Assembly (NCBI GenBank): GCA_964016885.1
Contig: OZ024741.1
Location: forward strand, 59,892,001-59,956,000
From: Eledone cirrhosa
Taxonomy: Eukaryota
Direction of reading: 5' to 3'
DNA: 64,000 nt
Below, one piece after another: positions 5,493-61,900 of this stretch; position 1 is the stretch's first letter; each line of letters opens with the position of its first letter. Below the pieces are notes generated by a model. The model searched no databases and was not told the DNA's origin. It saw only the letters and a program-made list of their open reading frames with translations. Made by a program: the position numbers and the translations under genes.

Positions 5493-5542
5493 GAAGAGGA
5501 AAAGAAATCACTCACCTCTTCGTCTCCTGGGGACCAGGCTGC

Positions 5543-8500
5543 ATCCCTCGTGCTTCGCGTCAAAGAACTGGTCTAGGGCCGTTCTTGACGCCAGCACGCC
5601 GGCCACGTTGCCACTCCTAATCGCCTCTTCTACTCTATCTATCAATTCCCTTTCAGTTCTATTCCTATCTGATGCTAATTCCTGACTAAAACCTATCGAT
5701 TCTATTCTAATTTCTCTCTTGAGAGAGCCCCACCACCTGCTGTTGACAATTGCCCCCGTCAACCGCTGTTTAACTACAGTGCTAATCTGCTTACTGTAAG
5801 CTTTGTTTGTCGGTAAGCACAAGTTTAGCTTCCAGTAACAGGGTCCTTGTCTATGGGTTCAATCAAGGTTGACCACTCCGGTCACCAACTTGTGATCCGA
5901 ATATGCAGCCATTAACATTCGTGGACAGCTTAATATGTCCCTATCCTTATTTCTAACTAGGAACCTATCTAGGTACGACCTAGATGTTCCGCTGACATTA
6001 GTCCACGTCCACAGTGGCACAGTCGGAAAATCTAGTCGATATCTATCGGCCAGATCAAATCGGTCGATTAACCGTTAGAGGCTGTTACACCCCCTCTCTA
6101 CCGGGACATGCCCCTACATGGTCCCAACGTGCATCCAGGATACCGTACCAGTTCCCCACTAAAAGCAAGAAGCGAGACGTTCCCAGAAAAGTCTCTAGGT
6201 GCTAGAAGTCCGGTCGCGGTGTTCCAGATGGGGAATACGCTGCCACCAGCCTGAAGGCTCCACCTTCACTACTGCTGACGTCTAGAACCACCATTCGACC
6301 CTCCGTGTCCAGGTGTACCTTCCGTGTTGCGAGGCCCAGGTGTTCTCGCAGAAGAACCACCACCCCGCCCTCACCCCCCGGCTGACAGAGAGATGCATAG
6401 ATCTCAAAATCGTCGAAGATGGGGGCCAGTTGATGCTTGCTGCTGATCTTGGACTCGCAAATAGCTATCACATCCATTCTGTGCGACCTGAGGTCATTTA
6501 AGAGTTCGCCCTACTTCCAGGACATCCCCAGGCCGCGCACATTTAAACATCCAACTCTTATAACAACCATGTTGGTGGTGAAGAGTTTAGAGTGGAGAAA
6601 AGGGAAAAGACACCTACCTGTCCTCCTGGGGACCAGGCTGCACAATTTCCATGAGGGTGTCGGCGGGGTTGTTTGGTGGGGTGGTGGTTTGGGATGTGGT
6701 GGGGACATCAGTGTGTGGTAGGGTGGGGGTGTTTGGTGGCGGAGTGGTGTATGGGGTGATGGTGTTGAAACATTTCAAGAGGACGCGTTTGATAGATCTA
6801 GTACAGGGGTTCCCTACGCCCTCGGGAAAGTTCTGTTTGAGCATTGCGTAGGTGTCCCTTAGGATACTAATCATTTTTAAATGCGGTTTAGTCGCCGCGT
6901 TGGTGAACATTTTCCCTTCAGTTTCCACCGAAGGGTCTTTGTCTATTGTTCGCACAAGTGTTTTGTTGTTTGTGTTGATGTATGTATACTGTTTTTGTGG
7001 TGTTGTGTTTGTTTTTGTTTGTTGTACTTGTGTGTGTTTGCGTTTTGTAGTATGTGTTATGTTTTCGGGAGGGGTGGGTTTTTTTGTTTGTGATGTTTGT
7101 TCTGTTTGTGCTGGTGGTTGTGTGGTTGTTGCATTTTTGTTAATGTGGTGCCTTCTTTTCTTTCATTTTACCGGTTGAAAGGGTTCTCCCTCGTCGTCAC
7201 TGGGTGACGTTGATAAGGGGTCCTCGTCCATGTTGTTGGGGAGGGGTATATTTTGGGGTTTTGTTGTGGTTGCTTTTGTATTTGTTTTAGGTGGGCAGGG
7301 GTTGGGTGGGACAGTGTCTTGTGTGGTTATTTGTTCGTGTTGTTGTGGTTGTTGTTTTGTTGTTGTGGTGGTGGTCGTGGTTGTGTTATTGTGTGTGTGG
7401 AGGGGGGGATGCAGAAGCGTCTGGGGGGGGGGGCATTTAAAAGGGGGCAGGAATCCCTCAGGTGACCACTTCTTGAACAGTAGTAGCATGAAGGCCGCCT
7501 GCCCTCAACAGAAATGTTTATCAAGGCGACTCCATCCAGAGACACACGCTGCGGTATTGCTATCCGTTCTGGTCTCATTTGGACCAGAACTTCAAGGCTA
7601 TTGCCGCCGAATACGCCCCCGGCGGATTCGCCTATCGAAAGGAGTGTCTAAGAAACCCGTTGCCTCCCACCAAATGCTCGCATTTGGCCTGATGCCCGAG
7701 ATTCTTATCTTTTGAGTTCTTTTACCCAAATATGTGGGGAAGAAGGTGTATGCTTTGGATACAATTGGCGAAACAGAATATTTCCGTGCGCCAATTCATC
7801 TTGCATTAAAACAGATATGCTTCCATACAGTTTCCCTTTCTGTATGAAAGCAATATCCTTCCAGGCACTACTTAGGACCAACTCAATTTCGCTTTGGGAC
7901 AATTGAGCCGGTTTCCTAGTCGTGTTCAAATCTGTCCTAAAGATTACGGTCCTGAGGACTGTGTCCCTTCTAATTTCTTCGGTGGAGGTAATTGTGAATT
8001 CCCCACCTTCCTCGAAAGTTACACAATTCCTTGCTTCTTTCAGCAATTTCTTGGCATTCGAGATGTCCAGTGCCTTGTATGTCCAGTGCCTTGTTTCTCG
8101 GACCGTCTGTGCGAAGGAGACTGCAGCTGTGGGTCCGTTTTCTTTCGGGTTGTTATCATTGTTGTTGTTATTCGTGTTGGCTTGCTTTTTTCCTTTGTTG
8201 GTGTAGTCATCATTGCTGTTGTTGGTTGTGTTGCTATTGTCATTGTTGCTGTTGTTGGTTGTGTTGTTTTTATCATTGTTGTTCTTGTTTGTGTAATTGT
8301 TACTTTTGGGGTTTTCACCCATTTCCACAATTTTTTCTTTTGATTCCGTGGTGTCTTTTGCGGGAGTGAGGAGGGAAGGCTTAGAGCGTTGTGCTGCTAC
8401 CTTCTCTTTATCACTTTCCTTGGGGGGCGTGGCATGCGTCGTATTAATGGAGTCCATTGTCACTAAACGAATTTTTATCGACAACTTATAACTATCAAAT

Positions 8501-8669: not shown

Positions 8670-12638
<3,969 letters not shown>

Positions 12639-27275: not shown

Positions 27276-27309
<34 letters not shown>

Positions 27310-27318
27310 GTTGTTATT

Positions 27319-35792: not shown

Positions 35793-38700
35793 ATGAATCT
35801 GCGAGCTACCAAGCACCCACGTGAAGCGCCAACCCAGAGACCCTCCCCTACGAGTGTCGACAAATGCCCAAAACTCCGAGTTGGTACCATCAATGTAGGC
35901 TCAATGAAAGGAAGAGCAGGAGAAATCGTAGAAATGCTAGAGCGAAAGGAAGTTGATGTATGCTGTGTGCAAGAGACTAGATGGAGAGGAGGGTCTGCTA
36001 GAGTCCTTGTAGGAAAAAGCCAGTGCTACAAATTTTTCTGGGTGGGAAATGACGATGGGATGGGTGGTGTAGGTATACTATTAGCTGACAAGTGGGTAGA
36101 TAAAGTAATCTCCGTGTACAGGGTAAATGCAAGAATCATTAAACTCAGACTAGTCCTGAATAAGACAATTACCACAATAATATCAGCTTACGCACCCCAA
36201 TCGGGGCTGCCAGACGAACTTAAGGATAGGTTTTACGAGTCCCTAATACACACTACTGCTCTAACAGACGACAAGGACTTCCTAATCATTGCAGGAGATT
36301 TTAACGGACACGTAGGTAAACACTGCGACGGCTTCAATAGAGTACATGGAGGCCATGGAGTTGGCACAAGGAATGAGGAAGGATTCAGACTTCTAGAATT
36401 CTGCGACGCCAATGACATGTCGATATGTAACACAAACTTTAAAAAACCCGACAACCACCTGATCACCTATAGATCAGGGGAGCACTCTAGTCAGTTAGAT
36501 TTTATCCTCATCAGAGGACGTGACAGATGGACGGTCGTAAACACAAAAGCCTTCCCTAGTGAGGAATGTACATCCCAACATAGCTTAGTTGTCAGCGACC
36601 TCACGGTCAGAACTAGACGAGCCCTGAAACAGAGGCCAACCTGGAGAAGAAAGATCTGGAAGCTGAAAGTCCCCTCAACCAGTAACAGATTTAAAGATAT
36701 TTTACTCAACGCCTACGACAGTAAAGAAGAACAGATAGAGACATTTAACGTAGAAGAGAACTGGGAGTTCCTAAAAAATAACTTACTAGAGGCGACGGAT
36801 GAGGTTTGTGGCTGGAGTAAGACCTCAAGCAGGAGGAGAGTGACTTGGTGGTGGAACAATAAGGTAGATGAAGCAGTCAAGGCCAAGAGACAGGCATGGA
36901 AAGAATGGAAGAATGGGGGGAGCAGGGTACATTACATAGAGACCAAGAGGGAAGCTAGGCGACAAGTATACTTAGCTAGGAGGGAAGCAGAGGATAGAAA
37001 ATTCAAGCATGTTTTACAACGTGAGGACCAGAAACAGGAGGTATTCAAGATTGCGAGGCAGTGTGTCAGAGATAGTTGTGATGTCATTGGAGAGAAGTGT
37101 ATCCGGAATGATAAAGGTGAGCTTGCCCTCACAAGTGCTGAGAAGAAAGATGCATGGAAGAGTCATTATGATAGATTACTAAATGAGGAGAATGCATGGG
37201 AAGAAGAGACCCTACCCCACGTAGACCCTATAGAGGGACCAGCAGTACAAGTCAGCGGCAGCGTAGTAAGTAAGGCAATCAGAGATATGAAGATAGGGAA
37301 GGCAACCGGTCCATCGGGTATAGCTGCCGAGATGCTGAAGGCATCTGGGTCTGTAGGTCACACTATAACCACACGTATCGTTAACCAGGTAATACTAGAG
37401 GGGGCCATACCAAAAGATTGGTGCAGTAGCATCATTGTCAACTGCTACAAAGGTAAAGGCGATGCACTAGATAGAGGAAACTATAGAGGTATAAAGTTGA
37501 TGGACCAGGTCATGAAAGTAACAGAAAGAGTTATAGCACAGCTGATTAGGGACCGGGTGAATATAGACGAGATGCAATTTGGGTTTGTTCCAGGGAAAGG
37601 CACCACTGATGCGCTCTTCCTTGTGAGGCAATTACAGGAAAAGTACCTAGCTAAAAGTAAGCCACTCTACTTGGCATTTGTCGACCTTGAGAAAGCCTTT
37701 GACAGAGTTCCACGTGCAGTAATCTGGTGGGCTCTTAGAAAACTAGGAGTAGATGAATGGCTTGTGAAAGCGGTACAAGCCATGTATAGGGGAGCAGTCA
37801 GCAAAGTTAGGATTGGCAATGAGTATAGCGAGGAATTTAGCGTACAGGTTGGGGTCCACCAGGGCTCTGTTCTTAGCCCTCTCCTGTTCATCATAGTCCT
37901 GCAGGCAATAACGGAGGAGTTTAAGACCGGATGCCCATGGGAACTCCTGTATGCTGATGACCTCGCACTCATAGCTGAATCTATGGTAGAACTAGAGAAT
38001 AAATTCCAAACCTGGAAGCAGGGACTAGAGAGAAAGGGCCTCAAAGTCAACATGACAAAGACTAAGGTCCTTATAAGTAGACGAGAAAACAGAACCCAGA
38101 TCCCCTCAGGGAAATGGCCTTGCTCAGTATGTAGGAAAGGTGTAGGTAGGAACTCCATTCTCTGCCCCAAATGCAAACAATGGGTACACAAGAGATGTAG
38201 CGGGATCTCAGGAAGCTTAATTAAGAATGTAGGATTCACATGCAGCAGCTGTGCTGAAACAGCAAGCAAACAGCCACAGGAAACAAGTACCACCAATCTC
38301 TGGGAGGGCCCTGTAGAAACAGTAGACAGCTTCTGCTACCTAGGTGACCGAATTAGCAACGGAGGTGGGTGCTCAGAAAGTACAATAACTAGGGTAAGAA
38401 CGGGATGGAAGAAGTTTAGGGAACTACTACCACTGCTAGCTGCAAAAGGCTTCTCCCTCAGAATGAAAGGCAGACTGTATGATGCGTGTATCCGAACAGC
38501 GATGTTGCATGGTAGTGAGACCTGGGCGCTGAAGGTGGAAGACTTACGTAGATTAGAGAGAAACGAAGCCTGCATGCTCCGATGGATGTGTAACAGTAAT
38601 ATACGTGAACGACAAAGCATAAATGAATTGAGAGAGAGACTGAGCATAAGAGGAATCAAATGCTGCGTGCAGGAGAGGCGGTTACGCTGGTATGGACATG

Positions 38701-38912
38701 TGATGCGTATGAAGGATGACAGCTGCATAAAAAGGTGCAGAGCACTAGAAGTTGATGGAAACCGCGGAGTGGGGAGACCCAAGATGACTTGGGATGAGGT
38801 GATAAAAGCCGACCTTACCCAACTACACCTCTCAAAGTCAATGACACACGACCGTGACTTCTGGCGTCACGCAGTAATACAGGGTACCCGACCTCCCATG
38901 GGTACATGCTGA
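35793..38912 (+). CDS. RTE LINE polyprotein: APE, reverse transcriptase, PHD-like zinc finger
   Basis: 1039-aa open frame; VQETRW, YAPQ, GDFNGH, FVDLEKAFD, HQGSVLSP, YADD, CSVC..CPKCKQWVHKRC..CSSC, RRLRWYGHV. Confidence 0.95.
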   Translation: MNLRATKHPREAPTQRPSPTSVDKCPKLRVGTINVGSMKGRAGEIVEMLERKEVDVCCVQETRWRGGSARVLVGKSQCYKFFWVGNDDGMGGVGILLADKWVDKVISVYRVNARIIKLRLVLNKTITTIISAYAPQSGLPDELKDRFYESLIHTTALTDDKDFLIIAGDFNGHVGKHCDGFNRVHGGHGVGTRNEEGFRLLEFCDANDMSICNTNFKKPDNHLITYRSGEHSSQLDFILIRGRDRWTVVNTKAFPSEECTSQHSLVVSDLTVRTRRALKQRPTWRRKIWKLKVPSTSNRFKDILLNAYDSKEEQIETFNVEENWEFLKNNLLEATDEVCGWSKTSSRRRVTWWWNNKVDEAVKAKRQAWKEWKNGGSRVHYIETKREARRQVYLARREAEDRKFKHVLQREDQKQEVFKIARQCVRDSCDVIGEKCIRNDKGELALTSAEKKDAWKSHYDRLLNEENAWEEETLPHVDPIEGPAVQVSGSVVSKAIRDMKIGKATGPSGIAAEMLKASGSVGHTITTRIVNQVILEGAIPKDWCSSIIVNCYKGKGDALDRGNYRGIKLMDQVMKVTERVIAQLIRDRVNIDEMQFGFVPGKGTTDALFLVRQLQEKYLAKSKPLYLAFVDLEKAFDRVPRAVIWWALRKLGVDEWLVKAVQAMYRGAVSKVRIGNEYSEEFSVQVGVHQGSVLSPLLFIIVLQAITEEFKTGCPWELLYADDLALIAESMVELENKFQTWKQGLERKGLKVNMTKTKVLISRRENRTQIPSGKWPCSVCRKGVGRNSILCPKCKQWVHKRCSGISGSLIKNVGFTCSSCAETASKQPQETSTTNLWEGPVETVDSFCYLGDRISNGGGCSESTITRVRTGWKKFRELLPLLAAKGFSLRMKGRLYDACIRTAMLHGSETWALKVEDLRRLERNEACMLRWMCNSNIRERQSINELRERLSIRGIKCCVQERRLRWYGHVMRMKDDSCIKRCRALEVDGNRGVGRPKMTWDEVIKADLTQLHLSKSMTHDRDFWRHAVIQGTRPPMGTC

Positions 38913-40034
38913 AGCATATAAACAATATGCCCCCCCCCCCCCCACCGCAAGGTGGTCGTGGAGGTGCCACGGCAAAAAAGCACCCAGCCCACACTGTAAA
39001 GTGGACGTGTAGGCGCCACGAAAAAGCACCCAGCACTCACTGTAAATGAGGTTGGTGTTAGGAAGGGCATCCAGCTGTAGAAATCAAGCCAGATCAGTTC
39101 CTGTATGAGCAAGGCATGGTCAGCCGACCAGACACTGCCCACAACAGGACAACCCGTCTAACCCATGCTAGCGTGGAAGAACGGACGTAAAACGGTGATG
39201 ATGATGATTTAGTCATTTTGTCATTTTCCTCCTTTTCGACTCTAACATTCCTGATCCAAAATTAAATATTAATCTTGTTTATTAATATTGTCTAGTGATA
39301 CCGCCATCTTCCCCTTTCGTAAGTTAACAGAAGGTAATGGGGGGATAGCGGTGGTAGCAATGAAGGTGTGATGGCGGCGGCGATGGGATAGTGGTAGTAA
39401 TGATGGATGGGCAGCGGTGGCGATGACTGTAGATGGGGTTGTCGTTACTGAGTTTTGTTGAATGAACTGTATTTTTGTTTGATCGGTGAATCTATGGGGT
39501 TAGTCGCGTATATATGTTGACATAATTTCTATAATATTGGAATTAAACATTTTGTTAAAACTTGAGACAATAATAATAGTAATTACTATTATTATGCTGA
39601 GATTGGTGGTGGTGGTGGTGAAATTGCTGTTATCTGGCTGATGTGTTTAGCGTACACAGAGGGGTGATAAGGCAGGTGGTGTATCTAGTTTCTGGTGTTG
39701 GTGAAATTGCTGATATTTGGCTGTTCTATATAGTGTAGACAGAGGGGGTGTTCTTCCATTTATAACCATTTTCTTTTTTGAATATAAAATGTATAATACA
39801 AAATTGAATATTTGAGTGATATAACAATATATTATGGATCCGAATTTTTTGGGAAATCAAGCCGAATGTTTTATGTATCATTTGTACTAAGAATTGTTAT
39901 TTCACAATTGATTTAAATATGTTAAAAATTCAAAACTTACGGGAGCGATTTTACGACCTTCTATCCACCATGTGCGTCTTCTTCTTCTTCTTCTTCTTAT
40001 TATTATTATTATTATTATTATTGTTATTGTTATT

Positions 40035-41150
40035 CCTTGAATCTCAGTCATTGATGTTGGTTAACTGGAAAGTCCGTTGGATTGAATATCAAGCCACTAC
40101 CTGCAGCCTCAGATATTCAGGACGTATCGGAGGGTTCTTGCCGTTCCAAGCAAGCATGCCTTTTGAAGCGTTCCAAAAAGCGTGAAGGGGCCGATTTTCT
40201 TTAACCATCCCTGGAAACCTTTGGAGATAGTCCCCAGTGCGCCTATGACAATCGGGATCACTTTGACTTCATGGCAGTTCCAAATCCTTTTCACCTCCCA
40301 CTTTAGGTCCTGGTATCGGTTAATTTTCTCCCTCTCCTTCTCTTGCACTCTCGTGTCGAACGGGCAGGCCACATCCACAATCAGGCACGATCTTTTTTCT
40401 TTGTCCACAACCACCAGGTCAGGTCTATTGTGTTCCAGTTTTTTGTCCGTCTGTATCCTAAAATCCCACAGCACCTTCACCTGACTGTTCTCCATCACCG
40501 CCTCTGGCCTATGCTCATATCATTTCTCAGAATGTGGTAGATTGTTTACTTTGCACAGGTGCCAGTGGATCACCCTGCCCATCACATCGTGTCTCCAGCC
40601 CTTATAGTGGGTCTGGGCTAGGTGTTTACACTCGGACACAATGTGAGCCACAGTCTCCTCTCTCTCTCCACAGATCCTGCACAGTGGGCTAGCCTCCTCC
40701 TTGTAGATATGGTGCTTCAACCACTTCGTTTTGAGGGCCTGCTCCTGCGCAGCCATTAGCATTCCTTCTGTAGCCTTTTTGAGGTCTCCTCTTCTCAACC
40801 AGTTCCATGTCTGTGGATCTCTAAATTCAGTTTTCTCAAAGAAGGTACTATGAAGGGATTTTCCCTTAAGGCTGCTCTTCCTCCTTGATGTTATTTCCTC
40901 CTTGGGTATCCCCTGGCCTACTGTCCCCTCCTTCAGTACAGCTCTGAGCATTGGCTCCTTACTATAGGTCACGTATTTGTATAGGTTGTTTTTCTCCATC
41001 TGAACACAGTCCTCTATGCTGATAAGACCTCTTCCACCCTCAGATCTCCTTAGGTAGAGTCTATCGACATCACTCCTCTTGTGGAACATGTTGTAGATAG
41101 TCAATAGCTTCCTAGTCTTCCTATCCATTTCTTTCTGTTCAGCAACATTC

Positions 41151-41153
<3 letters not shown>
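40035..41153 (-). mobile_element. R4/Dong-like LINE copy 3, 5'-truncated (same subfamily as copy 2)
   Basis: Near-identical to 27319-28430; (TCT)n(TAT)n at 39977-40034 and (TAT)n at 41153-41203. Confidence 0.92.
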
Positions 41154-41520: not shown

Positions 41521-42309
41521 CTTTGAGCCTCAGTCATTGATGTTAGTTAACTGGAAAGTTTGTTGAAATGAATATCAAGCCACTACCTGCAGCCTCAGAT
41601 ATTCAGGACGTATCGAAGGGTTCTTGCTGTTCCCAGCAAGCATGCCTTTTGAAGTGTTCCAAAAAGCGCGGCGGGGCCAATTTTCTTTAACCATCCCTGG
41701 AAATATTTAGATAGGACCTAGTGCGCCTATGACAATCGGGACCACTTTGACTTCATGGCAGTTCCAAATCCTTTTTACCTCCCACTTTAAGTCCTGGGAT
41801 CGGTTAATTTTCTCCCTCTCCTTCTCTTATTCTCTCGAGTCGAATGGGCAGGCCACATCCACAATCAGGCGCGATCTTTTTTCCTTGTCCAAAACCACCA
41901 GGTCAGGTCTATTGTTTTCCAGTTTCTTGTCCGTCTGTATACTAAAATCCCATAGCACCTTCACCTGATCGTTTTCTATCACCTACTCTGGCTTATGCTC
42001 ATACCACTTCTCAGAATGTGGTAAATTGTTTACTTTGCATAGGTGCCAGTGGATCACCCTGCCCATCACATCATGTCTCCAGCCCTTATAGTGAGTGCGG
42101 GATAGGTGTTTACACTCGGATACAATGTGAGCCATGGTTTCCTCTCTCTCTCCACAGATCCTGCACAGTGGTATAGCCTCCTCCTTGTAAATATGGTGTT
42201 TCACCCACTTCGTTTTGAGGGCCTGCTCTTGAGCAGCTATTAGTATGCGTTCTGTAGCCTTTTTAAGATCTCTTCTCAAACAGTTCCATGTCTGTGGATC
42301 TCTGAATTC
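41521..42309 (-). mobile_element. R4/Dong-like LINE copy 4, 5'-truncated and more diverged
   Basis: Homologous to 40035-40830; (TAT)n/(TCT)n tract at 41401-41520. Confidence 0.9.
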
Positions 42310-45300
42310 CAGCATCACAGAAAACGACTACACAACAACCCAAAAGTTCACACCACCTCCACACATACAAATCACTCGCATCACACAGAAAACGTACACG
42401 ACACTAAAACAAAAATTCCCCAAAGACATCGGAGACTTCCGACAAACACTCTCCAGGAGGATTTATAAGGACATCCTTCCGGAGGAGACCACATGCAGTG
42501 AAAAGGATGGACAAACCATCCTTCCTCTACGAGAAGTAAGGTAAGTGGGCTTTCCCATCTTTTCCACTCCATTTCAACATGACCTCACTCAGAATAGGCA
42601 GCATAAATGCGCCTTGCTTGGGGTCGACATGGAAGCAGGGCCACCTGCTCAACGACCTCAGGTCACTAAACATAGATGTAGTGGCCATCAGCGAGATCAG
42701 AATATCCGAAGCACGGGCCTTCGCACCGATCTTCGGCAGCTACGATGTGTACGCATCTCCCAGCCGTCCGGGATCGGGGGGAGGAGTTACTGTGCTTTTT
42801 CGGAGAGGTTTGGATCTCGTCATACGGGCCATCTTCCTGGACCCAGAAGATAAGTTGGTGGTGCTGGACGTGACCAGCTGAGACGGGCAAGCTTTCAGGA
42901 TAGTGGCCGTTTATGCCCCGACAGGAGCAGGGCGGCCTGATTCTTCCGGCGTCTGGAGACCTTTCTTGGAACGTCCCGGGCATTAGTGTTAGTGGGCGAC
43001 TGGAACGGGATCTTAGATGCACGCTGGGACAGTGTGGTATTAGCGGATAGGGGAGGAGGGTGCAAGAGCCCCACCAACCTGCTCAGGCGTTTTGAACTGT
43101 CTGACAGGTACCGATTGGATTTCCCGAATGTGCCAATGTGGACTTGGACAAATCGCATAGGGTCATCCAGATCATATCTAGATAGAGTATTTTGTAGAGA
43201 AATAGATAGGTCTAACCTAGGCTGTTCACAATTCAAGATAGTCAGCTGCACGGGCCACAAATTCGTGATCTGTGTACTTGACTTAGATAGGCTTCATAGA
43301 CGAGGACCCGACTACTGGAAGCTAAACGCGTCCTTACCAGCGCGCAAGTACTACAGAGACCGGATTAGCGAACTAGTTAAGCAGCGTTGACGGGGGCCAT
43401 CGTCAACAACAAGTGGTGGTTTTCTCTGAAAAGAGCAATTAGAATAGAGTCCATTACGTTTAGTAAGGCTTTAGCAATAGAGAAAAATAGAGCAGATGGA
43501 GAATTTGTTAGAAAATTAGACGAGGCGCTTAGCAAAGGCATCAGGACCGACGTACTTGCGCGAAATTGGCCCTTGACCAATTCTTCAATGCAAAGCACGA
43601 AGGCTGCGTTGTCAGAGCTAAGGGGCGTGCTCTCAGACACGAGGGGACGAAAGCCGTTCAATGGGCCCCAGTGGCCGAGGCGCATCGTGGCAACAAAGCC
43701 ACGATCCGGTCTTTGGCCGACCACGACGGGCGCAAGCTACTCGATCCCGGGCAAATGTGTAAAGCTTTTCAGCGACACTTCGCTCGGTTGTTCGGGGGCA
43801 GCGGTGGGCCGGATCGGGGAATGGACTTTAGTGTCTATCTCGACGGACTGCCGCGGCTCTCGGCCACTGAGGCGGAGTGTTGCGAAAAGCCGATAACAGC
43901 CGCTGAAGAACGGGAGGCAATGACTAGCTGCACAAGCGGTAAATCGCCTGGTTTAGATGGTCTGACTTATGAACTCTACGTACAGATGCCAGACTTGTTC
44001 GGAGGCCTCTTGGCGGAAGTGTACTGCAACTGGCAACAGAACGGGAGAATTCCCAGCTCTGTGAGCCGAGGAGCTGTGGCGCTGCTGAGAAAGGATCCGA
44101 ACAAAGGGGATAACATAGAAAATTTTAGGCCCATAACTTTCCTAAACACAGAGTTCAAGATTTTGGCCAAGGTGCTAGCAAAGAGGTTGGCGCTTGTCGT
44201 TGGTGGTCTGGTGGGAGGGGCGCAGACATGTGGCATTCCCGACAGATCCATCCACGACAACCTCCACCTCATACGATTCATCGTAGAGAGGGTAGCTAGG
44301 GAACCTGGTACGGGTGGATCCTTGATCAATTTCGATCAGTTGTAAGCTTTCGATAGGGTCGACCATCGTTACCTAGTGGCAGTCCTGAGGGCGGCTGGCT
44401 TTGGGCCCGTCTTCAGAGGCTGGATCGCTGCCATGCACAGCGACATATGCTCTGTGGTGAGAGTGAACGATCACCTGTCGGAACCGTTCAACATCATGCG
44501 CTCGGTCCGCCAAGGATGTCCCCTCTCGTCCCTCTTGTACGTATTGACTCTCGAGCCATTACTGCACAAACTGGAGACATTGAGGGGAGTCCCGCGCGAA
44601 CTAGGATGCGGAAGATCCGTGTCAGCATATGCCGACGATGTCACCGTAGTGTTGTCGAACGCCACACACATCGTGGCGATCGGCACTACACTAAGAGAAT
44701 ACGAAGCGGTGACAAGAGAAATGATCAACCAGGAAAAGTCAGTGGGCCTGCAGCTCGGCACCTCGAGAGGCAGGTCCATGCCGTCCAACAGCGTCGTCGG
44801 GCGCTGGACGGACGGACCGGGTAAAATGCTAGGGGTCTGGTTCGGTCCGGACCTCCAGACGGACAAAACCTGGGACGAGGTGACGAGCAGGGTGGCTTCT
44901 CTCACCCAGAAATGGGCCGAGAGGAAGCTATCCCTGAAAGGTCGAGCGGAGGTGGCTAACGCGTACATCGCGTCCGTCATCTACTACCGCTTGACCGTCG
45001 TACCTTGTCCTAAGCCCCGCCTGCTCTTTCGCTTTATGTGGAAGGGACGCGCTCCGATGGTCAGGCGGTCCATCTGCTGTCAACACCCGCTACGTGGAGG
45101 GCTGGGAATGCCGTGGCTGATGATGCGCAGACACGCGCTAAGGCTACGACATCTCCACCTCTTCCTCGACGGTGATCAGGTGTGGTCTCCGTTTGCTAGA
45201 CCCGTCTTTCCCCAGCTCGTCTCCTTGACGGAGCTGCAGTCCTGGGTCAAGCGAAGACCGAGAGAGAGCGCTTGGAGACTGGAATGTCTTCAGGCGCTCA

Positions 45301-46217
45301 CAGCCCTCGACCAATCGGGCAATGTGATCGGTGGAAACTCCAACTTGGCGTTCTATAGAGGATTATTGGAGGAGAAGAGCGACGACGTACTTGGGGAAAA
45401 TTTAGGCGTCGACGAAAATCAACTAGCCAATCTCTTCGGAAGAACTTTCGGGCCGGGCCCTATGGACAACTTCCAGAAATCCCTGGCCTGGCAGTGCTAC
45501 CGAGGAGCTTTGCCAGTTCGGGATAAACTCTACAGGCATGGAGGTGCCGTCAGCCGGGCATGTTCGAGATGCGCACAGGGCGACGAAACCGTCCTGCACG
45601 CACTCGGCCAGTGTCCGAGCATTGCTGATTGTGGGTTTGTGTCGAACACCTGCTGTCGCGTGTGGGACGGATCCAACTATCAGATGAATCCTTCGTGAGG
45701 ATTGCCCCGCCCTCTTCCTTTAGCCGGGAAGGGCAGGCAATTTTTATCTGTCTGGTGGCCATAGCGAAAGAGATAGTATGGTGGACACGTTTGAAAGGGC
45801 TGAAGACGAGCACTTACCTCTTCGGTGATGCCCTGATTAACTTTTTCAAATTTCATTTGAAAGGAAAAATCTGGGTAGAAAGGGAAGTGCTCTCTTCCCA
45901 CCATTTTGTTGAAAGATGGGTGAGAGAGGCAAGAATGGCCCGAGTGGATGGGCCTACTCTGAGTATGTGTCTGTAAATTAAAGGTGGAAAACTGGGAGAG
46001 GGTACTTGCCCTGGTGGTCAGGGTCACTGTGGCTTTTTAATGGGCTTTCTCCACCAATGTCCCTCGGAAGTCTCCCTCTATTGGGGAATTTTTCTTTGTT
46101 ATTTTATTACATCCTCTGTTTTTTTACACGCAGAAATGCCCATTTGTACCGTCCTGTTTTGTCATGTACTGTCCTTAATGTCTACTTTATGTAAACCCTT
46201 GTGGTTAATAAAGAAAA

Positions 46218-46255: not shown

Positions 46256-46463
46256 GCGACCTACGTAGGAAATCGTATTATCGTGAGCTCCGCAAAGGTT
46301 TGTTATTTCCGTTTGTTTAAAAATTGCCATTTATGGAAAATTTTATTGTAAACTGTTTATAAGCACACATACATTGTTTTCCGAAAAGGACACCCAAAAA
46401 GATTGGGGCCTTGTGCCCAAAATTTTAACTTTTATTATTATCCAAAAATTTCTTTGAAGAAAA

Positions 46464-48455
46464 ATGGCTAATTCCCCTCTGCACGAAGCAGCTGAAAGCC
46501 TTCCTCACAAAATAACACCTCACACCGACACCACCATTGTAAATGTTACTACGTTTGCCAACACAAAAAAAAAATATAAGCAGTAGCAATATTTTAAATT
46601 TGTCTCAGGCAGACATTCATTTCCCGCCATTACCAATGACTGCAGGTGTTAAACCCTCCACCACCACCAGCACCGCGACAACCACCACCACCACCACCAC
46701 CGCGACAACAGAAACAAAAGAAGAAAAAAATAAATTAACTCGTGACGTCGAAATGAAATCAAGCAAAATGGACTCTTCCCCACCAAAGACGACTGACGTC
46801 ACCACCACCACAACTGAAAATAAAATTAATATTAACGATAGCAACAACAACAACAATGACATTATAAAACCGACCCTCAGTTTCGCCATCGTAGCAAAAC
46901 AATTCGAAGCGTTCACGGTAACTCAAGAAGATTTAGAAAATGCCAAACAAATGGTAAAGAAAGTTGGGTACAGGGTCAGCCCCCCCCCCCCCCCCCACAC
47001 CTAATAAAATGGAGCATCGGCGCCTGTGCACCGTGTCGTATAGAACAATAAATGTAAAATCGCGCCGAGTGGAACGGGCATCCGAGTCCCAAATCCCAAA
47101 AGCTTTGGGACATGTGTGGGCAAGAAAAACCCACATCAGACGTGGGCAAAAGAATGGAACCGTGGATGTGTTCTTTGAAACACCAGAGGAGGCTAGAGAA
47201 CACTCCATGGCCCCATTAAAAAGTGACGACCTCACACTCGTCCCAAGCTATTGTGGCCAGAGACTCGTAAAGATCAGGGTGACCCACGTTCCACCGGCCA
47301 TCGAAATTCCCTGGCTAATAGCGGCTGTCCTCGCCGGCATCGAAGCCAACACGAAAATCATAGCAGTAGCAAAAGAAAAGCAGGAAAACTGGTCCGGATC
47401 TGGGATGGAGCTCCTGATCCAAGCGGACCAAAAAAGCATTGAGGAGATCCCAGAGGTAATAGACCTCACTGACGGCAGCCACCTCACGGTAATTGTCGAG
47501 GGCAGAAGACCTAGGTGTGTCGTTTGTGGTGAAGGAACCCACCTAAGGGCTTTCTGCCCTCAGGCTAAAAGGTTGAGGCCACCTCTCCTACACACCCCAG
47601 TGACACAACCATCAACACCACCAGTAGCAGAGATGGCAGCAACAACTGTAGCAGCAACAACAGAAGCAACTATAACAGCAACAACCCCAGCAACAGTAGC
47701 AAAACCAACACCACTACCACCACCAGCAAAACCAACACCACCACCACCCAACGCTTCAGAACTAGCACCAGCGCCTACACCATCCACCACACCACAACCA
47801 AAACTAACGGCTGTGGAGGATTTTCCACTCCCCGGCCTATCACAACTGGAGACAGATTGTGACGACGAGGAGTGGGAAACGATATCCGGAAAAAAAAAAG
47901 AAACCAAAAAAGAAAAAATTCTCTTCCTTCCCCCTCCAAAAACAAAATACAGAGGGAAACAAATAAACTAAGAAACAAAAAAGTTAGGACAGATATGCCA
48001 CCATCCACACCAGCATCACCAACCCCATCAACTCAAACACCAACACCATCACCATCATTATCCCCAGCACCACCATCACCTACACCACAAAAGTCACCAA
48101 AATGCGAAACAGAAACAAACTCACAACAAACGCAAACAAAACAAAACAACCAAAACGATACACACTACACAGCATTAAATTTGAACAACAAGCAATTATT
48201 ACACTACATCCAACACAACACCAGCATCACAGAAAAAGACTACACAACAACCCCAAAATTCACACCACCTCCACACATACAAATCACTCGCATCACACAG
48301 TAACGTACATGACACTAAAACAAAAATTCCCCAAAGACATCGGAGACTTCCGACAAGCACTCTCCAGGAGGATTTATAAGGACATCCTTCCTGAGGAGGC
48401 CACAAGCAGTGAAAAGGATGGAAAAGCCGTCCTTCCCCTACGAGAAGTAAGGTAA
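46464..48455 (+). pseudogene. Tx1 ORF1 (zinc knuckle, Thr/Pro-rich), broken at homopolymers and by a stop at 48301
   Basis: VEGRRPRCVVCGEGTHLRAFC; pieces 46543-47004, 46964-47971, 47872-48303, then to 48455. Confidence 0.85.
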
Positions 48456-48489
48456 GTGGTCTTTCCCATCTTTTCCACTCCTTTTCAAC

Positions 48490-51400
48490 ATGACTTCACT
48501 CAGAATAGGCAGCATAAATGCGCGTGGCTTGGGGTCGTCATGGAAGCAGGGCCACCTGCTCAACGACCTCAGGTCACTAAACATAGATGTAGTGGCCATC
48601 AGCGAGACCAGAATCTCCGAAGCACAGGCTTTCGCACCGAACTTCGGCGGCTACGATGTGTACGCATCTCCCAGCCGTCCGGGTTCGGGGGGAGGAGTTG
48701 CTGTGCTTTTTCGGAGAGATTTGGATCTTGCCATACGGGCCATCTTCCTGGACCCAGAAGGTAAGTTGGTGGTGCTGGACGTGACCAGCGGAGACGGGCA
48801 AGCTTTCAGGTTAGTGGCCGTCTATGCCCCGACAGGAGCAGGGCGGCCTGATTTCTTCCGGCGTCTGGAGACCTTTCTTGGAACGTCCCGCTCTTTAGTG
48901 TTAGTGGGCGACTGGAACGGGATCTTAGATGCACGCTGGGATTGTGTGGGATTAGTGGATAGGGAAGGAGGGTGCAAGAGTCTCACCAACCTGCTCAGAC
49001 GTTTTGAACTGTCTGACAGATACCGAATGGATTTCCCGAATGTACCAATGTGGACTTGGACAAATCGCATAGGGTCATCCAGATCATATCTAGATAGAGT
49101 ATTTTGTAGGGAAATAGATAGGTCTAGCATAGGCTGTCCACAATTCAAGATAGTCAGCTACACGGACCACAAATTCGTGATCTGTGTGCTTGACTTAGAT
49201 AGACTTCATAGACGAGGACCCGGCTACTGGAAGTTAAACGCGTCCTTACCAGCGCGCAAGGCCTACAGAGACCGGATTAGCGAACTAGTTAAGCGGGCGT
49301 TGACGGGGGCCATCGTCAACAACAAGTGGTGGTTTGCTCTGAAAAGAGCAATTAGAATAGAGTCCATTAGGATTAGTAAGACTTTAGCAATAGAGAAAAA
49401 TAGAGCAGAGGGAGAATTAGTTAGAAAATTAGATGAGGCGCTTCGCAAAGGCATCGCGACCGACGTACTTGCGGCGAAATTGGCCCTTGACCAATTCTTC
49501 AATGCAAAGCACGAAGGCTACGTTGTCAGAGCTAGGGTGCGTGCTCTCAGACACGAGGGGACGAAAGCCGTTCAATGGGCCCGAGTGGCGGAGGCGCGTC
49601 GTGGCAACAAAGCCACGATCCGGTCTTTGGTGGACCACGACGGGCGCATGCTACTCGATCCCGGGCAAATGTGTGAAGCTTTTCAGCGACACTTCGCTCA
49701 ACTGTTCGGGGGCAGTGGCGGGCCGGATCGAGGGATGGACTTTAGTGTCTACCTCGACGGACTGCCGCGGCTTTCGGCCACTGAGGCGGAGTGTTGCGAA
49801 AAGCCGATAACAACCGCTGAAGTATGGGATGCAATGACTAGTTGCACAAGGGGTAAATCGCCTGGTTTGGATGGTCTGCCCTATGAACTTTACGTTCAAA
49901 TGCCAAACTTGTTCGGAGGCCTCTTGGCGTACGTCTACTGCAACTGGCAACAGAACGGGAGAATTCCCAGCTCTGTCAGCCGAGGAGCGGTGGCGCTGCT
50001 GAGAAAGGATCCGAACAAGGGGGATAACATAGATAATTTTAGGCCCATAACTCTGCTAAACACAGAGTTCAAGATTTTGGCCAAGGTGCTAGCAAAGAGG
50101 TTGGCGCTTGTCGTTGGTGGTCTGGTGGGAGAGGCACAGACATGCGCCATTCCCGACAGATCCATCCACGACAACCTCCACCTCATGCGATACATCGTAG
50201 AGAGGGTAGCTAGGGAACCTGGCACGGGTGGGTCTTTGATCAATTTAGATCAGTCGAAAGCCTTCGATAGGGTCGACTATCGTTACCTAACGGCAGTCCT
50301 GAGGGCGGCTGGCTTTGGGCCCGTCTTCAGAGGCTGGATCGCTGTCATGCATAGCGACATCTGCTCTGTAGTGAGAGTGAACGGTCACCTTTCGGAACCG
50401 TTCAACATCATGCGCTCGGTCCGCCAAGGATGTCCCCTCTCGTCCCTATTGTACGTATTGACTCTCGAGCCATTACTGCACAAACTGGAGACTTTGAGGG
50501 GGGTCCCGCGCGAACTAGGATGCGGAAGATCCGTGTCAGCATATGCCGACGATGTCACCGTAGTGGTGTCGAACGCCAAACACATCGAGGCGATCGGCAC
50601 TACACTAAGAGAATACGAAGCGGTGACAGGAGCAATGATCGACCAGGAAAAGTCAGTGGGCCTGCAGCTCGGCTCCTGGAGAGGCAGGTCCATGCCGTCC
50701 AACAGCGTCGTCGGGCGCTGGACGGACGGACCGGTTAAATTGCTAGGGGTCTGGTTCGGTCCAGACCTCCAGACGGACAAAAACTGGGACGAGGTGACGA
50801 GCAGGGTGGCTTCTCTCACCCAGAAATGGGCCGAGAGGAAGCTATCCCTGAAAGGTCGAGCGGAGGTGGCGAATGCGTACATCGCATCCGTCATCTACTA
50901 CCGCCTGACCGTCGTACCTTGTCCTAAGCCCCGCCTGACTGCGCTGGAGCGTTTGCTCTTTCGCTTCTTGTGGAAGGGACGCGCTCCGGTGGTCAGGCGG
51001 TCCATCTGCTGTCAACACCCGCTACGTGGAGGGCTGGGCATGCCGTGGCTGATGATGCGCAGACACGCGCTCAGGCTACGACATCTCCACCTCTTCCTCG
51101 ACGGTGATCAGGTGTGGTCGCCGTTTGCAAGACACGTTTTTCCCCAGCTCGTCTCCTTGACGGAGCTGCAGTCCTGGGTCAAGCGAAGACCGAGAGGGAG
51201 CGCTTGGAGACTGGAATGTCTTCAGGCGCTCACAGCCCTCGACCAATCGGGCAATGTGATCGGTAGAAACTCCACCTTGGCGTTCTATAGGGGATTAGTG
51301 GAGGGGAAGAGCGACGACGTACTTGGAGAAACTCTAGGCGTCGACGAAAATCAACTAGCCAATCTCTTCGGAAGGACTTTCGGGCCGGGGCCTATGGACA

Positions 51401-51909
51401 ACTTCCAGAAATCCCTGGCCTGGCAGTGCTACCGATGAGCTTTACCAGTTCGGGATAAACTCTACTGGCATGGAGGTGCCGTCAGTCGGGCATGTCCGAG
51501 ATGCGCGCAGGGCGACGAAACCGTCCTGCACGCACTCGTCCAGTGTCCGAGCATTGCTGACTTGTGGGTTTATGTCGAACACCTGCTGTCACGTGTAGGA
51601 CGGATCCAGCTATCAGCTGAGTCCATCGTGAGGATTGCCCCGCCCCCTTCCTTTAGCCTGGAAGGGCAGGCAGTTTTTATCTGTCTGGTGGCCATGGCGA
51701 AAGAGATAGTATGGTGGACACGTTTGAAAGGGCTGAAGACGAGCACTTACCTCTTCGGTGATGCCCTGATTAACTTTTTCAAATTTCATTTGAAAAGGAA
51801 AATCAGGGTAGAGAGGGAAGTGCTCTCTTCCCAGCATTTTGTTGAAAGATGGGTGAGAGAAGCAAGTATGGCCCGAATGAATGGGCCTTCTCTGAGTATG
51901 TGTCTGTAA
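48490..51909 (+). pseudogene. Tx1 ORF2 (APE, RT, CCHC; 1139 codons) with one premature TGA at 51436-51438
   Basis: 982-aa ORF continues in frame after the TGA through CPRC..ETVLHALVQC to the stop at 51909; copy D has GGA at that codon. Confidence 0.93.
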
Positions 51910-52151
51910 ATTAAAGGTGGAAAACTGGGAGAGGGCACTTGCCCTGGTGGTCAGGGCCACTGTGGTCTTTTAATGGGCTTTCTCCACAAATGTCCATTGG
52001 AAGTCTCCCCCCTATTGGGGAATTTTTCTTTGTTATTTTATTTCAACCTCTGTTTTTTTACACGCAGAAATGCCCATTTGTACCGTCCTGTATTGTCCTG
52101 TACTGTCCTTAATGTCTACTTTATGTGAACCCTTGTGGTTAATAAAGAAAA

Positions 52152-57729: not shown

Positions 57730-59451
<1,722 letters not shown>

Positions 59452-59629
59452 ATCTATGTATGTATATATGTATATATATATATATTTTAAATAGTTAAAC
59501 AAGATTCAATAAGTGTGTCAAAGAATGAGTTTTACAGTAGATTGGAAGCACTCTACAGCTATTATTTTCTAGAGTTATTAATATTAAAATACAAATATTA
59601 ATCAAATAGATGTTCTTTTGATCAGATAC

Positions 59630-59682
59630 ATTTTATTATACATATTTCAGATGTACAACTGTACGTCCTCATCAGACAAAAT
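59630..59682 (-). ncRNA. Minimal type I hammerhead ribozyme motif
   Basis: ATTTTGT-CTGATGA-GGACGTACAgtTGTACATCT-GAAA-TATGTA-TA-ATAAAAT: stem I, core, stem II, minimal stem III, AUA cleavage triplet. Confidence 0.75.
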
Positions 59683-59839
59683 ATAATGATACATGACATA
59701 CCCTGAGATGTTAAATGGTTAAGATTTAATCAAGGTAGTGATTAACCCAAGAAAAATTTAACATTTATATCCTAATAATTAGAAAATGCGAAAACGTAAT
59801 AAATTCAACAGAGAAAGTGCGAGTAAGAAAAACGTTGCT

Positions 59840-61900
59840 TAATGTAACAGTTATATAGATATTAAGATGTATGATACTATAATTTTTGAATAAAAAGGGG
59901 TAATAAGCTGAAGGAGATTTATTTTTGCCGAAAGTTAAACGGTTAATTTTGAAAATATTTAATTTATGGTATTATAAGGTGAAGTTTCGACATGTTGGTT
60001 GTATTTTTTTTAAATTGCTGGTTATTTATATATTAGTTTTATAAATTCTATAAGTGAGTTAACATTTCAAAGCTTCTGAATTTCATGTGGGTAACTTTTA
60101 TATGAATTAGCCTTTAATATTTATAGGAATTAGTCTTAATATTGCATTATCTTATAACTATCTATATAAGAAATAACGCTCGAATGAAAGGCACTTGTTC
60201 AATAACATGCTGAACATTTACACACATAACAATATATTACTAACTTTGATGAATACCATTATTTCTTTATTTCTTTATTTCTCTATCTCTCTATCTATCT
60301 TCCTTTCTAAGTTTTAAATTTTAGTTTAATATCCAACCCATATATTTTTAAGGATATTATTTACAACAGTGAATTTTTTAACGCGTTTTTTTATCTCTTA
60401 TTTATAATATATTATAATATGTACGTAATTATAATTTCTATATTTTTTTAAATATACCTACTGCATTTATATATCCAAGATTCAAATATAGAGCAAATAT
60501 CCAAACTATAAATTATAGACATTATCTTGAACTCTGAATTATCCATGCATTTTTTTTATTATTCTTTCTCTTATATACATATATGTATTTAACTTTAACA
60601 CGTAGAACTTTATTATATAAAATTGTAACCGTTATCATCTACCTAAAGTATACTGTACCATTAATACCTAATATATATCTATATATACCTCCCTATATAT
60701 TACTATATATCATTATTAGTTAACTGCTAAATTTTAATGTAACAGTTATATAGATATTAAGATGTATGATACTATAATTTTTGAATAAAGCGGGGTAATA
60801 AGCTGAAGGAGATTTATTTTTGCCGAAAGTTAAACGGTTACTTTTGAAAATATTTAATTTATGGTATTATGGGGTGAAGGTTCGAGATTTTTTTAATTTT
60901 TTTAAATTGCTGGTTATTTATATATTAGTTTTATAAATTATATAAGTGTGTTAACATTTCAAAGCTTCTGAATTTCATGTGGGTAACATTTATAGGAATT
61001 AGCTGGCCAACAGGAGTGAAAGTTTATACTGTTGATTAATTTCCTAAATGTAAACTTTAACGGAGATACTGCGCGTATTAGGTATGTAAAGCTTGTGAAT
61101 TACTTATTGTTAGAAATATTTAAATAACGATTATGTATATATTTATATAAATGAGAAAGTATATTTTAGGTAGATGATAACAAAATAATAGATTGATGCA
61201 TGTTAAGGTTAAATATACACCTATATATAAGAGGTTGTAAATGCATTAATTATTCTTAGTTCAGAGTAAATGTAATCAAGAAATTTAGAAGTTAACTAAA
61301 AATTTAGAAGTTAACTAAAAATTATATATAGTAATATATAGGGAGGTATATAAAGATATATATTTGGTATTAATGGTACAGTAAACTTTAGGTAGATGAA
61401 AACGGTTACAATTTTATATAAGTTCTACGTGTTACAGTTAAATACATATATGTATATAAGAGAAGGAATAATAAAAGAAATTACATGGATAATTCAGAGT
61501 TCAAGATAATGTCTATAATTTATAGTTTGGATATTTGCTCTATATTTGAATCATGCATATATAAATGCAGTAGGTATATTTAAAAAATATAAAAAATATA
61601 ATTACGTACATATTATAATATATTATAAGAGATCAAAAAACGCGTTAAAAAATTCACAGTTGTAAATAAGATCCTTAAAAATATATGGGTTGGATATTAA
61701 TCTAAAATTTAAAACTTAGAAAGGAAGATAGATAGAGAGATAAAGAAATAAAGAAATAAAGAAATAAAGAAATAATGGTATTGATCACAGTTAGTAAAAT
61801 AATGTTGTGTGTAAATGTTCAGCATGTTATTAAACAAGTGCCTTTCATTCGAGCGTTATTTCTTCTATAGATAGTTATAAGATAATGCAATATTAAAGGC
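59840..61900. repeat. About 270-bp direct repeat (59840-60110, 60735-61003) and about 600-bp inverted repeat (60136-60734, 61300-61897)
   Basis: Aligned by eye, for example GCTCGAATGAAAGGCACTTG versus CAAGTGCCTTTCATTCGAGC. Confidence 0.88.

What the first reader, a model, noticed from the sequence alone, without database searches (positions are those of the whole stretch)
48445..52070. Tx1 LINEs bury the ORF1 stop codon in a conserved 5' splice donor: candidate spliced ORF1-only RNA
Seen: all five ORF1 ends read AGG-stop-GTG, i.e. AG|GTAAGT (E 48452, D 42541, C 10350 minus), AG|GTAGGT (B2 6617 minus) and AG|GTGAGT (B1 5515 minus). Three different stop codons all keep a donor consensus although the surrounding sequence has diverged. 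Each 3' UTR has an AG-free T-rich tract ending in YAG after the CCCCTATTGG(G/C)G motif (E 52067, D 46133; minus A 979, B1 1967, C 8769). Established: Drosophila copia makes a spliced gag-only RNA; LINEs usually couple ORF1 and ORF2 translationally. Inference: an intron spanning ORF2 sets the ORF1:ORF2 ratio, removes the stop and adds a short tail (E: ..VRNAHLYRPVLSCTVLNVYFM*), while keeping the 3' end needed for mobilisation. Alternatively it is a U1-binding site without splicing.
Basis: partly seen in the sequence, partly recalled or inferred. Interest (0 to 1): 0.85.

Follow-up and report, generated by a model that had tools for sequence, protein, structure and literature searches.

The report
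Splice-donor motif at LINE ORF1 ends
A group of jumping genes (LINE retrotransposons) keeps a near-perfect splice-start signal exactly where the first gene ends, even in a very distant relative, but the matching splice-end signal is patchy and no spliced copy was found in the genome, so the signal likely serves as a docking site for the host's U1 splicing particle rather than as the start of a routinely removed intron.

Summary
The donor is real and under selection; the proposed ORF2-spanning intron is not shown. All five donors and five YAGs lie at the stated coordinates. The ORF1-end donor is the top-scoring (twice tied) of about 350-425 GT sites in representatives of all 9 families sampled from this genome, and recurs in a relative only 42% identical in ORF2 whose synonymous sites are saturated. 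It is not tied to the stop: it occurs in four registers, so selection acts on the nucleotides, which match U1 snRNA. The acceptor fails: it sits at two unrelated positions, is missing or weak in five families and the distant relative, and would remove the conserved 3' motif. No spliced retrocopy was found against 2455 intact donors and 7543 unspliced acceptors. No run on record as RNA was available. Best reading (0.45): a U1 docking site left unspliced that protects the full-length RNA; rival (0.35): true ORF1-only splicing. The scan noted this motif before, on other DNA of this genome and in another genome.

The parts
46256..52150 (+). Element E: full-length L1-group (Tx1-like) LINE between (ATT)n runs, directly behind element D
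   Evidence: 2455 genomic copies share its ORF1-end motif
46464..48455 (+). ORF1 of E (frameshifted in this copy; about 670 aa in intact copies; CX2CX4HX4C knuckle, RNA-binding-like N-half, low-complexity C-half)
48449..48457 (+). ORF1-end donor motif AAG|GTAAGT, holding the ORF1 stop TAA
48460..48489 (+). Pyrimidine-rich spacer before the ORF2 ATG (37-47 nt donor-to-ATG in all 9 families; 13 nt and no tract in the distant family)
48490..51909 (+). ORF2 (APE endonuclease, RT, C-terminal zinc-binding region); premature TGA at 51436 in this copy
48758..48766 (+). Second strong donor match inside ORF2 (E, H, G2 only; lies on G-K codons, so partly coding)
52009..52020 (+). Conserved 3' motif CCCC-TATT-GGGG; folds as a 4-bp hairpin, no two-sided compensatory change seen; would be removed by the proposed splice
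52021..52067 (+). T-rich tract and candidate acceptor CAG (best acceptor score of the span in E, F; not conserved in H, G2, B2)
52141..52146 (+). AATAAA, followed by the (ATT)n tail
46295..46303 (+). Weak donor-like AAG|GTTTGT about 40 nt from the 5' end of E
42538..42546 (+). ORF1-end donor of element D (5'-truncated sister of E, 42309-46216; candidate acceptor 46133)
10345..10353 (-). ORF1-end donor of element C (AAG|GTAAGT); C has an internal ORF2 deletion that does not use these sites; candidate acceptor 8769
12374..12440 (-). 67-nt GT-AG intron-shaped segment retained in the 5' UTR of C
6612..6620 (-). ORF1-end donor of element B2 (CAG|GTAGGT); the B2 family has no YAG after the 3' motif
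5510..5518 (-). ORF1-end donor of element B1 (GAG|GTGAGT); candidate acceptor 1967 would give a product without a stop before the tail

Best explanation
These LINEs keep a U1-matching splice-donor motif at the end of ORF1 that likely binds the host U1 snRNP and is likely left unspliced in the RNA that gets copied back into the genome. Shown: the motif, its conservation, its independence of reading frame, the patchy acceptor and the absence of spliced copies. Inferred: U1 bound mid-way along a 6-kb intron-less transcript suppresses premature cleavage and polyadenylation (the A-rich ORF1 end carries AATAAA/ATTAAA 70-560 nt upstream in 6 of 9 representatives) and so lets full-length ORF1+ORF2 RNA be made, as the HIV-1 and foamy-virus major donors do and as U1 does in the plant copia element EVD. 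Donor-like sites near the 5' end and, in some families, at the ORF2 stop would be further docking sites of the same kind. Minor splicing from the site is not excluded.
For: Top donor score in 9 of 9 family representatives and rank 1-2 in the distant family. The changes seen at +3/+4 are A-to-G only, which U1 tolerates (pairing rule recalled). Four stop registers. No shared acceptor in the 3' UTR and none that stands out in ORF2. 0 spliced junctions: exact search 0; 82 of 82 copies lacking GT after the exon end and 41 of 41 with a purine before the acceptor AG are point changes, small deletions or truncations; 0 ORF1 ends within 300-320 nt of a 3' end in the G and C/B1 groups (positive control). 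A complete GT-AG segment in the C 5' UTR is retained in 4 of 4 copies held, and a second donor at the ORF2 stop, which cannot remove ORF2, is kept in the distant families, varying GTAAGT/GTGAGT. Precedent: PMC3694450 (abstract, passages), PMC5580714 (passages); human L1 keeps a 5' UTR donor that is mostly unspliced (PMC5860796, passages).
Against: No RNA or binding data at all. The poly(A) signals near the donor are about as many as A-richness predicts (observed 0-5, expected 0.9-1.9 per 600 nt) and are absent in H, B1 and B2. In human cells an unspliced donor motif causes nuclear retention and decay (PMC9074902, abstract), a cost this model must overcome. All conserved donors lie within about 45 nt of a stop codon, which is what NMD-safe real splicing predicts and mere docking does not need. 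One relative (L332) and a farther one (L336) lack the ORF1-end donor and still look intact. Absence of retrocopies is weak if the spliced RNA loses the 3' motif and lacks ORF2 in cis.
Confidence: 0.45

Rival explanations
1. The donor starts a real alternative intron that removes ORF2 and yields an ORF1-only mRNA, raising ORF1p over ORF2p; each family uses its own acceptor, and the spliced RNA is not retrotransposed because it loses the 3' motif and has no ORF2 in cis.
For: The donor always lies at or within about 25 nt of the ORF1 stop, which keeps ORF1p whole and the junction NMD-safe (rule recalled). In E, F, C, L299 and L332 the best acceptor of the whole downstream span is in the 3' UTR. 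In the distant family that acceptor keeps TAG behind a pyrimidine tract that varies C/T in 10 of 10 UTR variants. Stringent LINEs need their 3' stem-loop to transpose (PMC4176376, passages), which would explain no retrocopies in E/F/C. Copia-type elements do this for Gag (PMC5580714, passages).
Against: No good acceptor in G1, G2, G3-L277, B2, H; best 3' UTR scores do not beat dinucleotide shuffles (p 0.04-0.98, only F under 0.05). The B1 product would be non-stop and the tails are unrelated. 0 retrocopies, whereas spliced human L1 RNAs make about 2% of full-length copies (PMC5860796, passages). In the distant family the acceptor lies upstream of the 3' motif, yet 70 of 70 ORF1-end matches (overlapping loci, so not independent) are unspliced.
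Confidence: 0.35
2. EVD-like variant: the donor splices to a nearby acceptor in ORF2 or to host sequence downstream, coupled to early polyadenylation; or a 30-37 nt micro-intron fuses ORF1 to ORF2.
For: EVD precedent (PMC5580714, passages). B1, G2, G3 and H have a YAG just before the ORF2 ATG behind the pyrimidine tract; fusion would be in frame in B1 and G2.
Against: E, F, G1, B2 and C lack that AG and G3/H would be out of frame; 30-37 nt is below usual animal intron size (recalled). Shared acceptor-like sites in ORF2 are moderate and lie on conserved codons; E, F and C have no AATAAA/ATTAAA in ORF2.
Confidence: 0.08
3. The motif is read by something other than U1: a termination-reinitiation signal for ORF2 translation, or a DNA-level factor site (as RUNX3 explains the human L1 5' UTR donor).
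For: It lies at the stop/start junction and often holds stops in two frames. The RUNX3 case shows donor look-alikes can be kept for another reason (PMC5860796, passages).
Against: Conservation covers exactly -2..+6 with the splice-donor pattern of tolerated changes; stop position and distance to the ATG (13-47 nt) vary while the motif does not; it recurs behind ORF2, where nothing reinitiates.
Confidence: 0.09
4. Inherited coincidence with no function.
For: The families share ancestry; L332 and L336 lack it; columns were picked after seeing them.
Against: 5 invariant columns against a neutral rate of 0.20 (0.06 with the distant family); top rank in every family.
Confidence: 0.03

Closest known systems
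L1-clade / Tx1-group LINEs, including microsatellite-targeting Kibi and Koshi (PMC3812793, passages) and the L1-Tx1 families listed for Octopus vulgaris (PMC13282606, passages)
   Same: Two ORFs, APE-RT-zinc ORF2, best solved relative human L1 ORF2p (E 4e-51), insertion in microsatellites, here (ATT)n and (TATC)n, with head-to-tail arrays.
   Different: A conserved splice-donor motif at the ORF1 end; not mentioned in the passages seen.
Arabidopsis Ty1/copia EVD shGAG system (PMC5580714, passages); Drosophila copia spliced gag RNA (recalled)
   Same: A conserved U1 site at the end of the structural gene of a retroelement; U1 both allows a short spliced RNA and blocks premature termination of the full-length RNA.
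   Different: LTR elements with one gag-pol frame, a conserved acceptor and seen spliced RNA; here ORF1 has its own stop, the acceptor is not conserved and no spliced RNA is seen.
HIV-1 and foamy-virus major splice donors as poly(A)-site suppressors (PMC3694450, abstract and passages)
   Same: A donor acts through U1 binding, independent of splicing; in HIV-1 it lies 195 nt downstream of the suppressed signal, like the ORF1-end signals upstream of this donor.
   Different: There the target is one defined LTR poly(A) site and the donor is also used in splicing; here no conserved target site was found.
Human L1 splice sites and SpIREs (PMC5860796, passages)
   Same: A conserved, mostly unspliced donor in a LINE.
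   Different: It lies in the 5' UTR, is ascribed to an overlapping RUNX3 site, and leaves spliced retrocopies (about 2%); here it lies at the ORF1 stop, shifts frame, and leaves none.

Membership tests
L1 clade (APE-type non-LTR) | ORF2 with APE endonuclease, RT and C-terminal zinc-binding region, closest to L1 ORF2p | tested here: met
   Pfam PF03372, PF00078, PF13966 weak; PDB best hits L1 ORF2p
L1 clade (APE-type non-LTR) | Upstream ORF1 with RNA-binding/CCHC domains | tested here: met
   682-codon frame; CX2CX4HX4C in sequence; Atlas look-alikes CCHC/RRM-type at 0.90-0.92, a lead only; no Pfam hit above cut-off
Tx1 group | Phylogenetic placement with named Tx1 elements | not testable with these tools
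No named Tx1 sequence came from any call; the tree (quick search) holds unnamed relatives only.
Tx1 group | Sequence-specific insertion (often microsatellites or small-RNA genes) | tested here: met
   (ATT)n on both sides of E, G, H copies, (TATC)n/(TA)n for B and C; tandem arrays at about 5.9 kb spacing
copia/EVD-type spliced structural-gene RNA | Conserved U1-type donor at the end of the structural gene | tested here: met
copia/EVD-type spliced structural-gene RNA | Conserved partner acceptor | tested here: not met
copia/EVD-type spliced structural-gene RNA | Spliced subgenomic RNA is made | not testable with these tools
   No run on record as RNA
SpIRE / HAL1-type spliced or ORF1-only retrocopies | Genomic copies lacking exactly the intron | tested here: not met
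   control
U1-mediated poly(A) suppression (HIV-1/foamy MSD type) | U1-complementary site near poly(A) signals that must stay unused | tested here: inconclusive
   Signals within 600 nt upstream in 6 of 9 representatives, about as many as composition predicts
U1-mediated poly(A) suppression (HIV-1/foamy MSD type) | Mutating the site causes premature 3' ends; compensatory U1 rescues | not testable with these tools
   Needs a bench test

The most novel reading that the evidence does not exclude
A lineage of LINEs has replaced pure translational coupling with spliceosomal control: donors placed at the stop codons of ORF1 and (in some families) ORF2 act as alternative 5' splice sites, so the host spliceosome makes an ORF1-only mRNA while only the unspliced RNA, which keeps the 3' recognition motif, is reverse-transcribed. 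This would be a retrovirus/copia-like expression strategy in a non-LTR element, kept across saturated synonymous divergence.
Probability: 0.3. Interest if true: 0.8.

Novelty: new variant of a known kind. Interest (0 to 1): 0.58.

Why it matters
LINEs are treated as intron-less elements for which splice signals are a liability. A donor held under selection at the ORF1 stop through frame shifts and saturated divergence says that this lineage recruits U1 on purpose, either to protect its full-length RNA or to set the ORF1:ORF2 ratio. Either answer adds a mode of LINE gene control, and one 9-nt mutation plus a compensatory U1 would decide it. For the host, at least 2455 copies of one family carry a perfect donor, each a possible cryptic splice site in sense-oriented intronic insertions.

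Tried and rejected
RNA: no RNA holder was listed (6 runs, all of unrecorded kind), which is no evidence on expression. Contigs of X1, X4, X5, X6 on E showed no 48451-52068 joint among the 15 joints printed (540 hidden). X4 alone on L048, a natural copy with donor and acceptor 950 nt apart, gave one joint, not at the donor, and 3 contigs crossing the donor unspliced; 6 of 52 loose ends were printed. X4's kind is unknown and contigs drop rare forms, so I do not use this as evidence. Retrocopies: searches need exact motifs, so mutated copies are missed; for E/D a second exon starting with GT was not covered on the donor side; family B2 was not matched by the pattern; F and H ORF1 ends were not searched. 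L269 joins the ORF1 end into ORF2 at a site without AG (microhomology deletion); L076 and L084 begin at the acceptor but are 5' truncations behind (ATT)n. Splice-site scores use rounded, recalled animal frequencies, not a matrix trained on this host; H was not scored and L197 dropped out (18 of 19 printed). The first hairpin alignment was mis-anchored and gave no structure; the re-anchored one gave a 4-bp stem with 0 two-sided changes, so the hairpin is not proven. Calicivirus-type UGGGA reinitiation motif (recalled): present in some distant subfamilies, broken in others; rejected. Viral contigs gave no relatives; metagenome contigs gave 6 loci without a usable ORF1 end, only L241 read. The careful tree did not finish; the quick tree is used. 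Literature: 10 searches listed no paper that describes this motif by title or start of abstract; most listed papers were not read, supplements were not opened, and Repbase entries and subscription papers are outside the library.
Full report
What was checked. The window lies in a 3.0-Gb animal genome (G000:C2:59892001-59956000). That the host is an octopus-like mollusc is my impression and that of earlier scan notes; no call tested it. Element E (46256-52150) is a full-length L1-group LINE: ORF2 has APE, RT and a weak zinc-binding hit and its best solved relative is human L1 ORF2p. This copy is broken (ORF1 frameshifts, TGA at 51436), but intact copies exist, with a 682-codon ORF1 frame ending AGG-TAA and a 1152-codon ORF2 frame. 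So 48452 is the true ORF1 end. The family is young and large: 2455 exact ORF1-end motifs with GT and 7543 exact unspliced 3' ends.

The donor is under selection. From 464 kb of contiguous DNA and targeted fetches I sorted ORF1/ORF2 junctions into nine families (E/D, F, H, G1, G2, G3, B1, B2, C), 62-96% identical to E in ORF2 and forming three well-supported clades (quick tree). Every representative has the motif: AAG|GTAAGT (E, H, G1, G3, C), ACG|GTAAGT (F), GAG|GTAAGT (G2), CAG|GTAGGT (B2), GAG|GTGAGT (B1). With a generic, recalled donor matrix it is the best of 352-425 GT sites in each 7-kb stretch, 9 of 9, tied in E and H with a site on G-K codons in ORF2. Columns -1, +1, +2, +5, +6 are invariant and -2, +3, +4 agree in 8 of 9, the +3 and +4 exceptions being A to G; outside -3..+6 columns mostly agree in 3-7 of 9. 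By comparison 23 of 113 four-fold ORF2 columns are invariant over the same families and identity between clades is 0.53-0.64. Decayed single copies that have lost the GT exist at a low rate (82 against 2455).

It is independent of the stop codon. The conserved peptide ME(V/I)E(Q/P)PDL fixes the frame: C and B2 end ..K/D-R* with the stop inside the donor (phase 2, as E and F); G1, G3 and H end ..G-K* with the stop just after it (phase 1); G2 reads through ..RE|VSKPSLSLS* (phase 0). A distant family, found as tandem arrays in contigs filed under a bacterial bin (very likely animal DNA; inference), is 42% identical in ORF2 with four-fold identity about 0.30, and reads GAG-TAA-G|GTAAGT, stop upstream and ORF2 start 13 nt on. 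There the donor ranks first (L322) or second (L299). Its sister L332 and the farther L336 lack it, so it is either ancestral with a loss or arose twice.

The acceptor does not hold up. The E/F site TTTACACG-CAG reads -CAC in H, -GCC or -ATC in G2 and -TCC or -ACC in B2; the A/B1/C site ATATAG is another position, shared by one G3-like subfamily. No YAG lies between the 3' motif and the end in L201, L202 (B2), L277 (G3), L278 (H, up to an early AATAAA), L299 and L322; G1 and G2 have only late ones. The best 3' UTR acceptor is the best of the span in E, F, C, L299 and L332, but beats shuffles only marginally or not at all (p 0.06, 0.04, 0.14, 0.11, 0.34; others 0.50-0.98). The GGGGAATT plus T-rich tract is itself shared with the distant family, where no AG follows, so the tract has another job, probably 3'-end recognition or processing (inference). 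Predicted tails are unrelated (19 aa in E/D, 34 in C) and B1 has no stop before its tail repeats. The splice would also delete the most conserved 3' motif, against the claim that the mobilisation end is kept. No shared strong acceptor stands out inside ORF2.

No spliced retrocopies. The exact E junction has 0 matches. All 49 copies with no G after the exon end, all 33 with G but no T, and all 41 with a purine before the acceptor AG were read; none joins ORF1 to the 3' UTR. For G1/G2/G3 and for C/B1, no ORF1 end lies within 300-320 nt of a 3' end; the same kind of wide-gap pattern finds 7543 real matches; these groups together with B2 have at least 1294 ORF2 starts. Human L1 leaves about 2% spliced copies (PMC5860796, passages). 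The test is weakened because an ORF1-only RNA lacks ORF2 in cis and, in E/F/C, the 3' motif; stringent LINEs cannot transpose without their 3' stem-loop (PMC4176376, passages). RNA could not be tested (see Tried and rejected).

Further donors. The distant family has a second donor at or 15 nt behind the ORF2 stop (CTG/TTG/CCG|GTRAGT, in one subfamily again CGG-TAA-GT), L332 has CAG|GTAAGT 41 nt behind it, and G1 and B2 read TAG|GTAGGT and TAG|GTGAGA; E does not. Donor-like sites of mixed strength lie 30-65 nt from the 5' end in E, F, G1, B2 and C, and C keeps a 67-nt GT-AG segment in 4 of 4 copies held, one with a shorter, diverged middle but the same ends. An earlier scan note (e1-9533430) had pointed to this segment and to donors at both gene ends; I had seen the ORF2-end donors first and checked the segment afterwards.

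How it most likely works. Shown: a selected U1 match at the ORF1 end, no common acceptor, no spliced copies. Inferred (0.45): U1 docks there and protects the 6-kb transcript from premature 3'-end formation, as at the HIV-1 and foamy-virus donors (PMC3694450, abstract and passages) and in EVD, where U1 both splices and blocks early termination (PMC5580714, passages). The A-rich ORF1 end has poly(A) signals within 600 nt upstream in 6 of 9 representatives, but about as many as composition gives, and unspliced donors cause nuclear retention in human cells (PMC9074902, abstract), so this reading has real costs. The close rival (0.35) is true splicing to family-specific acceptors: every conserved donor is within about 45 nt of a stop, as NMD-safe splicing requires (rule recalled), and the distant family has a well-kept acceptor. 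The two are not exclusive; EVD does both.

Novelty. The element is an ordinary L1-group, Tx1-like, microsatellite-targeting LINE (PMC3812793 and PMC13282606, passages; Tx1 placement untested). U1 use by retroelements is known for LTR elements and retroviruses, and splicing of antisense RNA for TART (PMC1636488, abstract). Ten searches listed no description of a conserved donor at a LINE ORF1 stop, with the limits given above. The scan noted the motif before: e1-9591487, e1-9517759 and e1-9533430 on other pieces of this genome and e1-9593165 in another genome; these are unchecked notes, not independent support. Verdict: new variant of a known kind, interest 0.58.

Noticed in passing
window 12374-12440 (-): 67-nt GT-AG segment with a CTAAT branch-like motif in the 5' UTR of element C, retained in 4 of 4 copies held; also noted in e1-9533430.
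   Followed up: partly
L299:8486-8722, L322:8486, L332:4536: Second perfect donor at or just behind the ORF2 stop in the distant families, with a conserved acceptor-like site about 240 nt on in the L299 family: a complete intron-shaped 3' UTR segment kept in all copies read.
   Followed up: partly
window 47639-48229 and 51973-52150 in run X4: Run X4 (kind unrecorded) shows contig depth 100-1000 times higher over the A-rich ORF1 end and the 3' end than elsewhere, falling just behind the ATTAAA at 48174; X1 is flat. Could be oligo-dT capture or premature polyadenylation; contig depth cannot decide.
   Followed up: no
L297-L335, L338 (contigs CAXXMW01...), L336: A genome bin labelled as a bacterium holds dozens of tandem, intact animal-type LINEs on many of its contigs; a second bin holds one. 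Probably host contamination in a public genome collection.
   Followed up: no
G000:C1:423365098-423418069; C1:66402371-66414196: Head-to-tail arrays of young full-length copies at about 5.8-5.9 kb spacing, consistent with repeated insertion into the element's own (ATT)n tail.
   Followed up: no
L284, L285, L281 against L286: Families E and F share ORF2 (96%) and the last codons of ORF1 but have different 5' UTRs and ORF1 sequences, suggesting module exchange near the donor.
   Followed up: no
window 5478-5515 (-), and L208, L197, L277, L278: In B1, G2, G3 and H the pyrimidine spacer ends in YAG just before the ORF2 ATG; with a 5' UTR donor it could give an ORF2-only RNA. Absent in E, F, G1, B2, C.
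   Followed up: partly
window 24152-41152 and 58310-63786: Other long frames with RT- and endonuclease-like peptides (RTE-, R4/Dong- and Penelope-like by eye; labels recalled), including a 1040-codon frame at 35790-38912.
   Followed up: no
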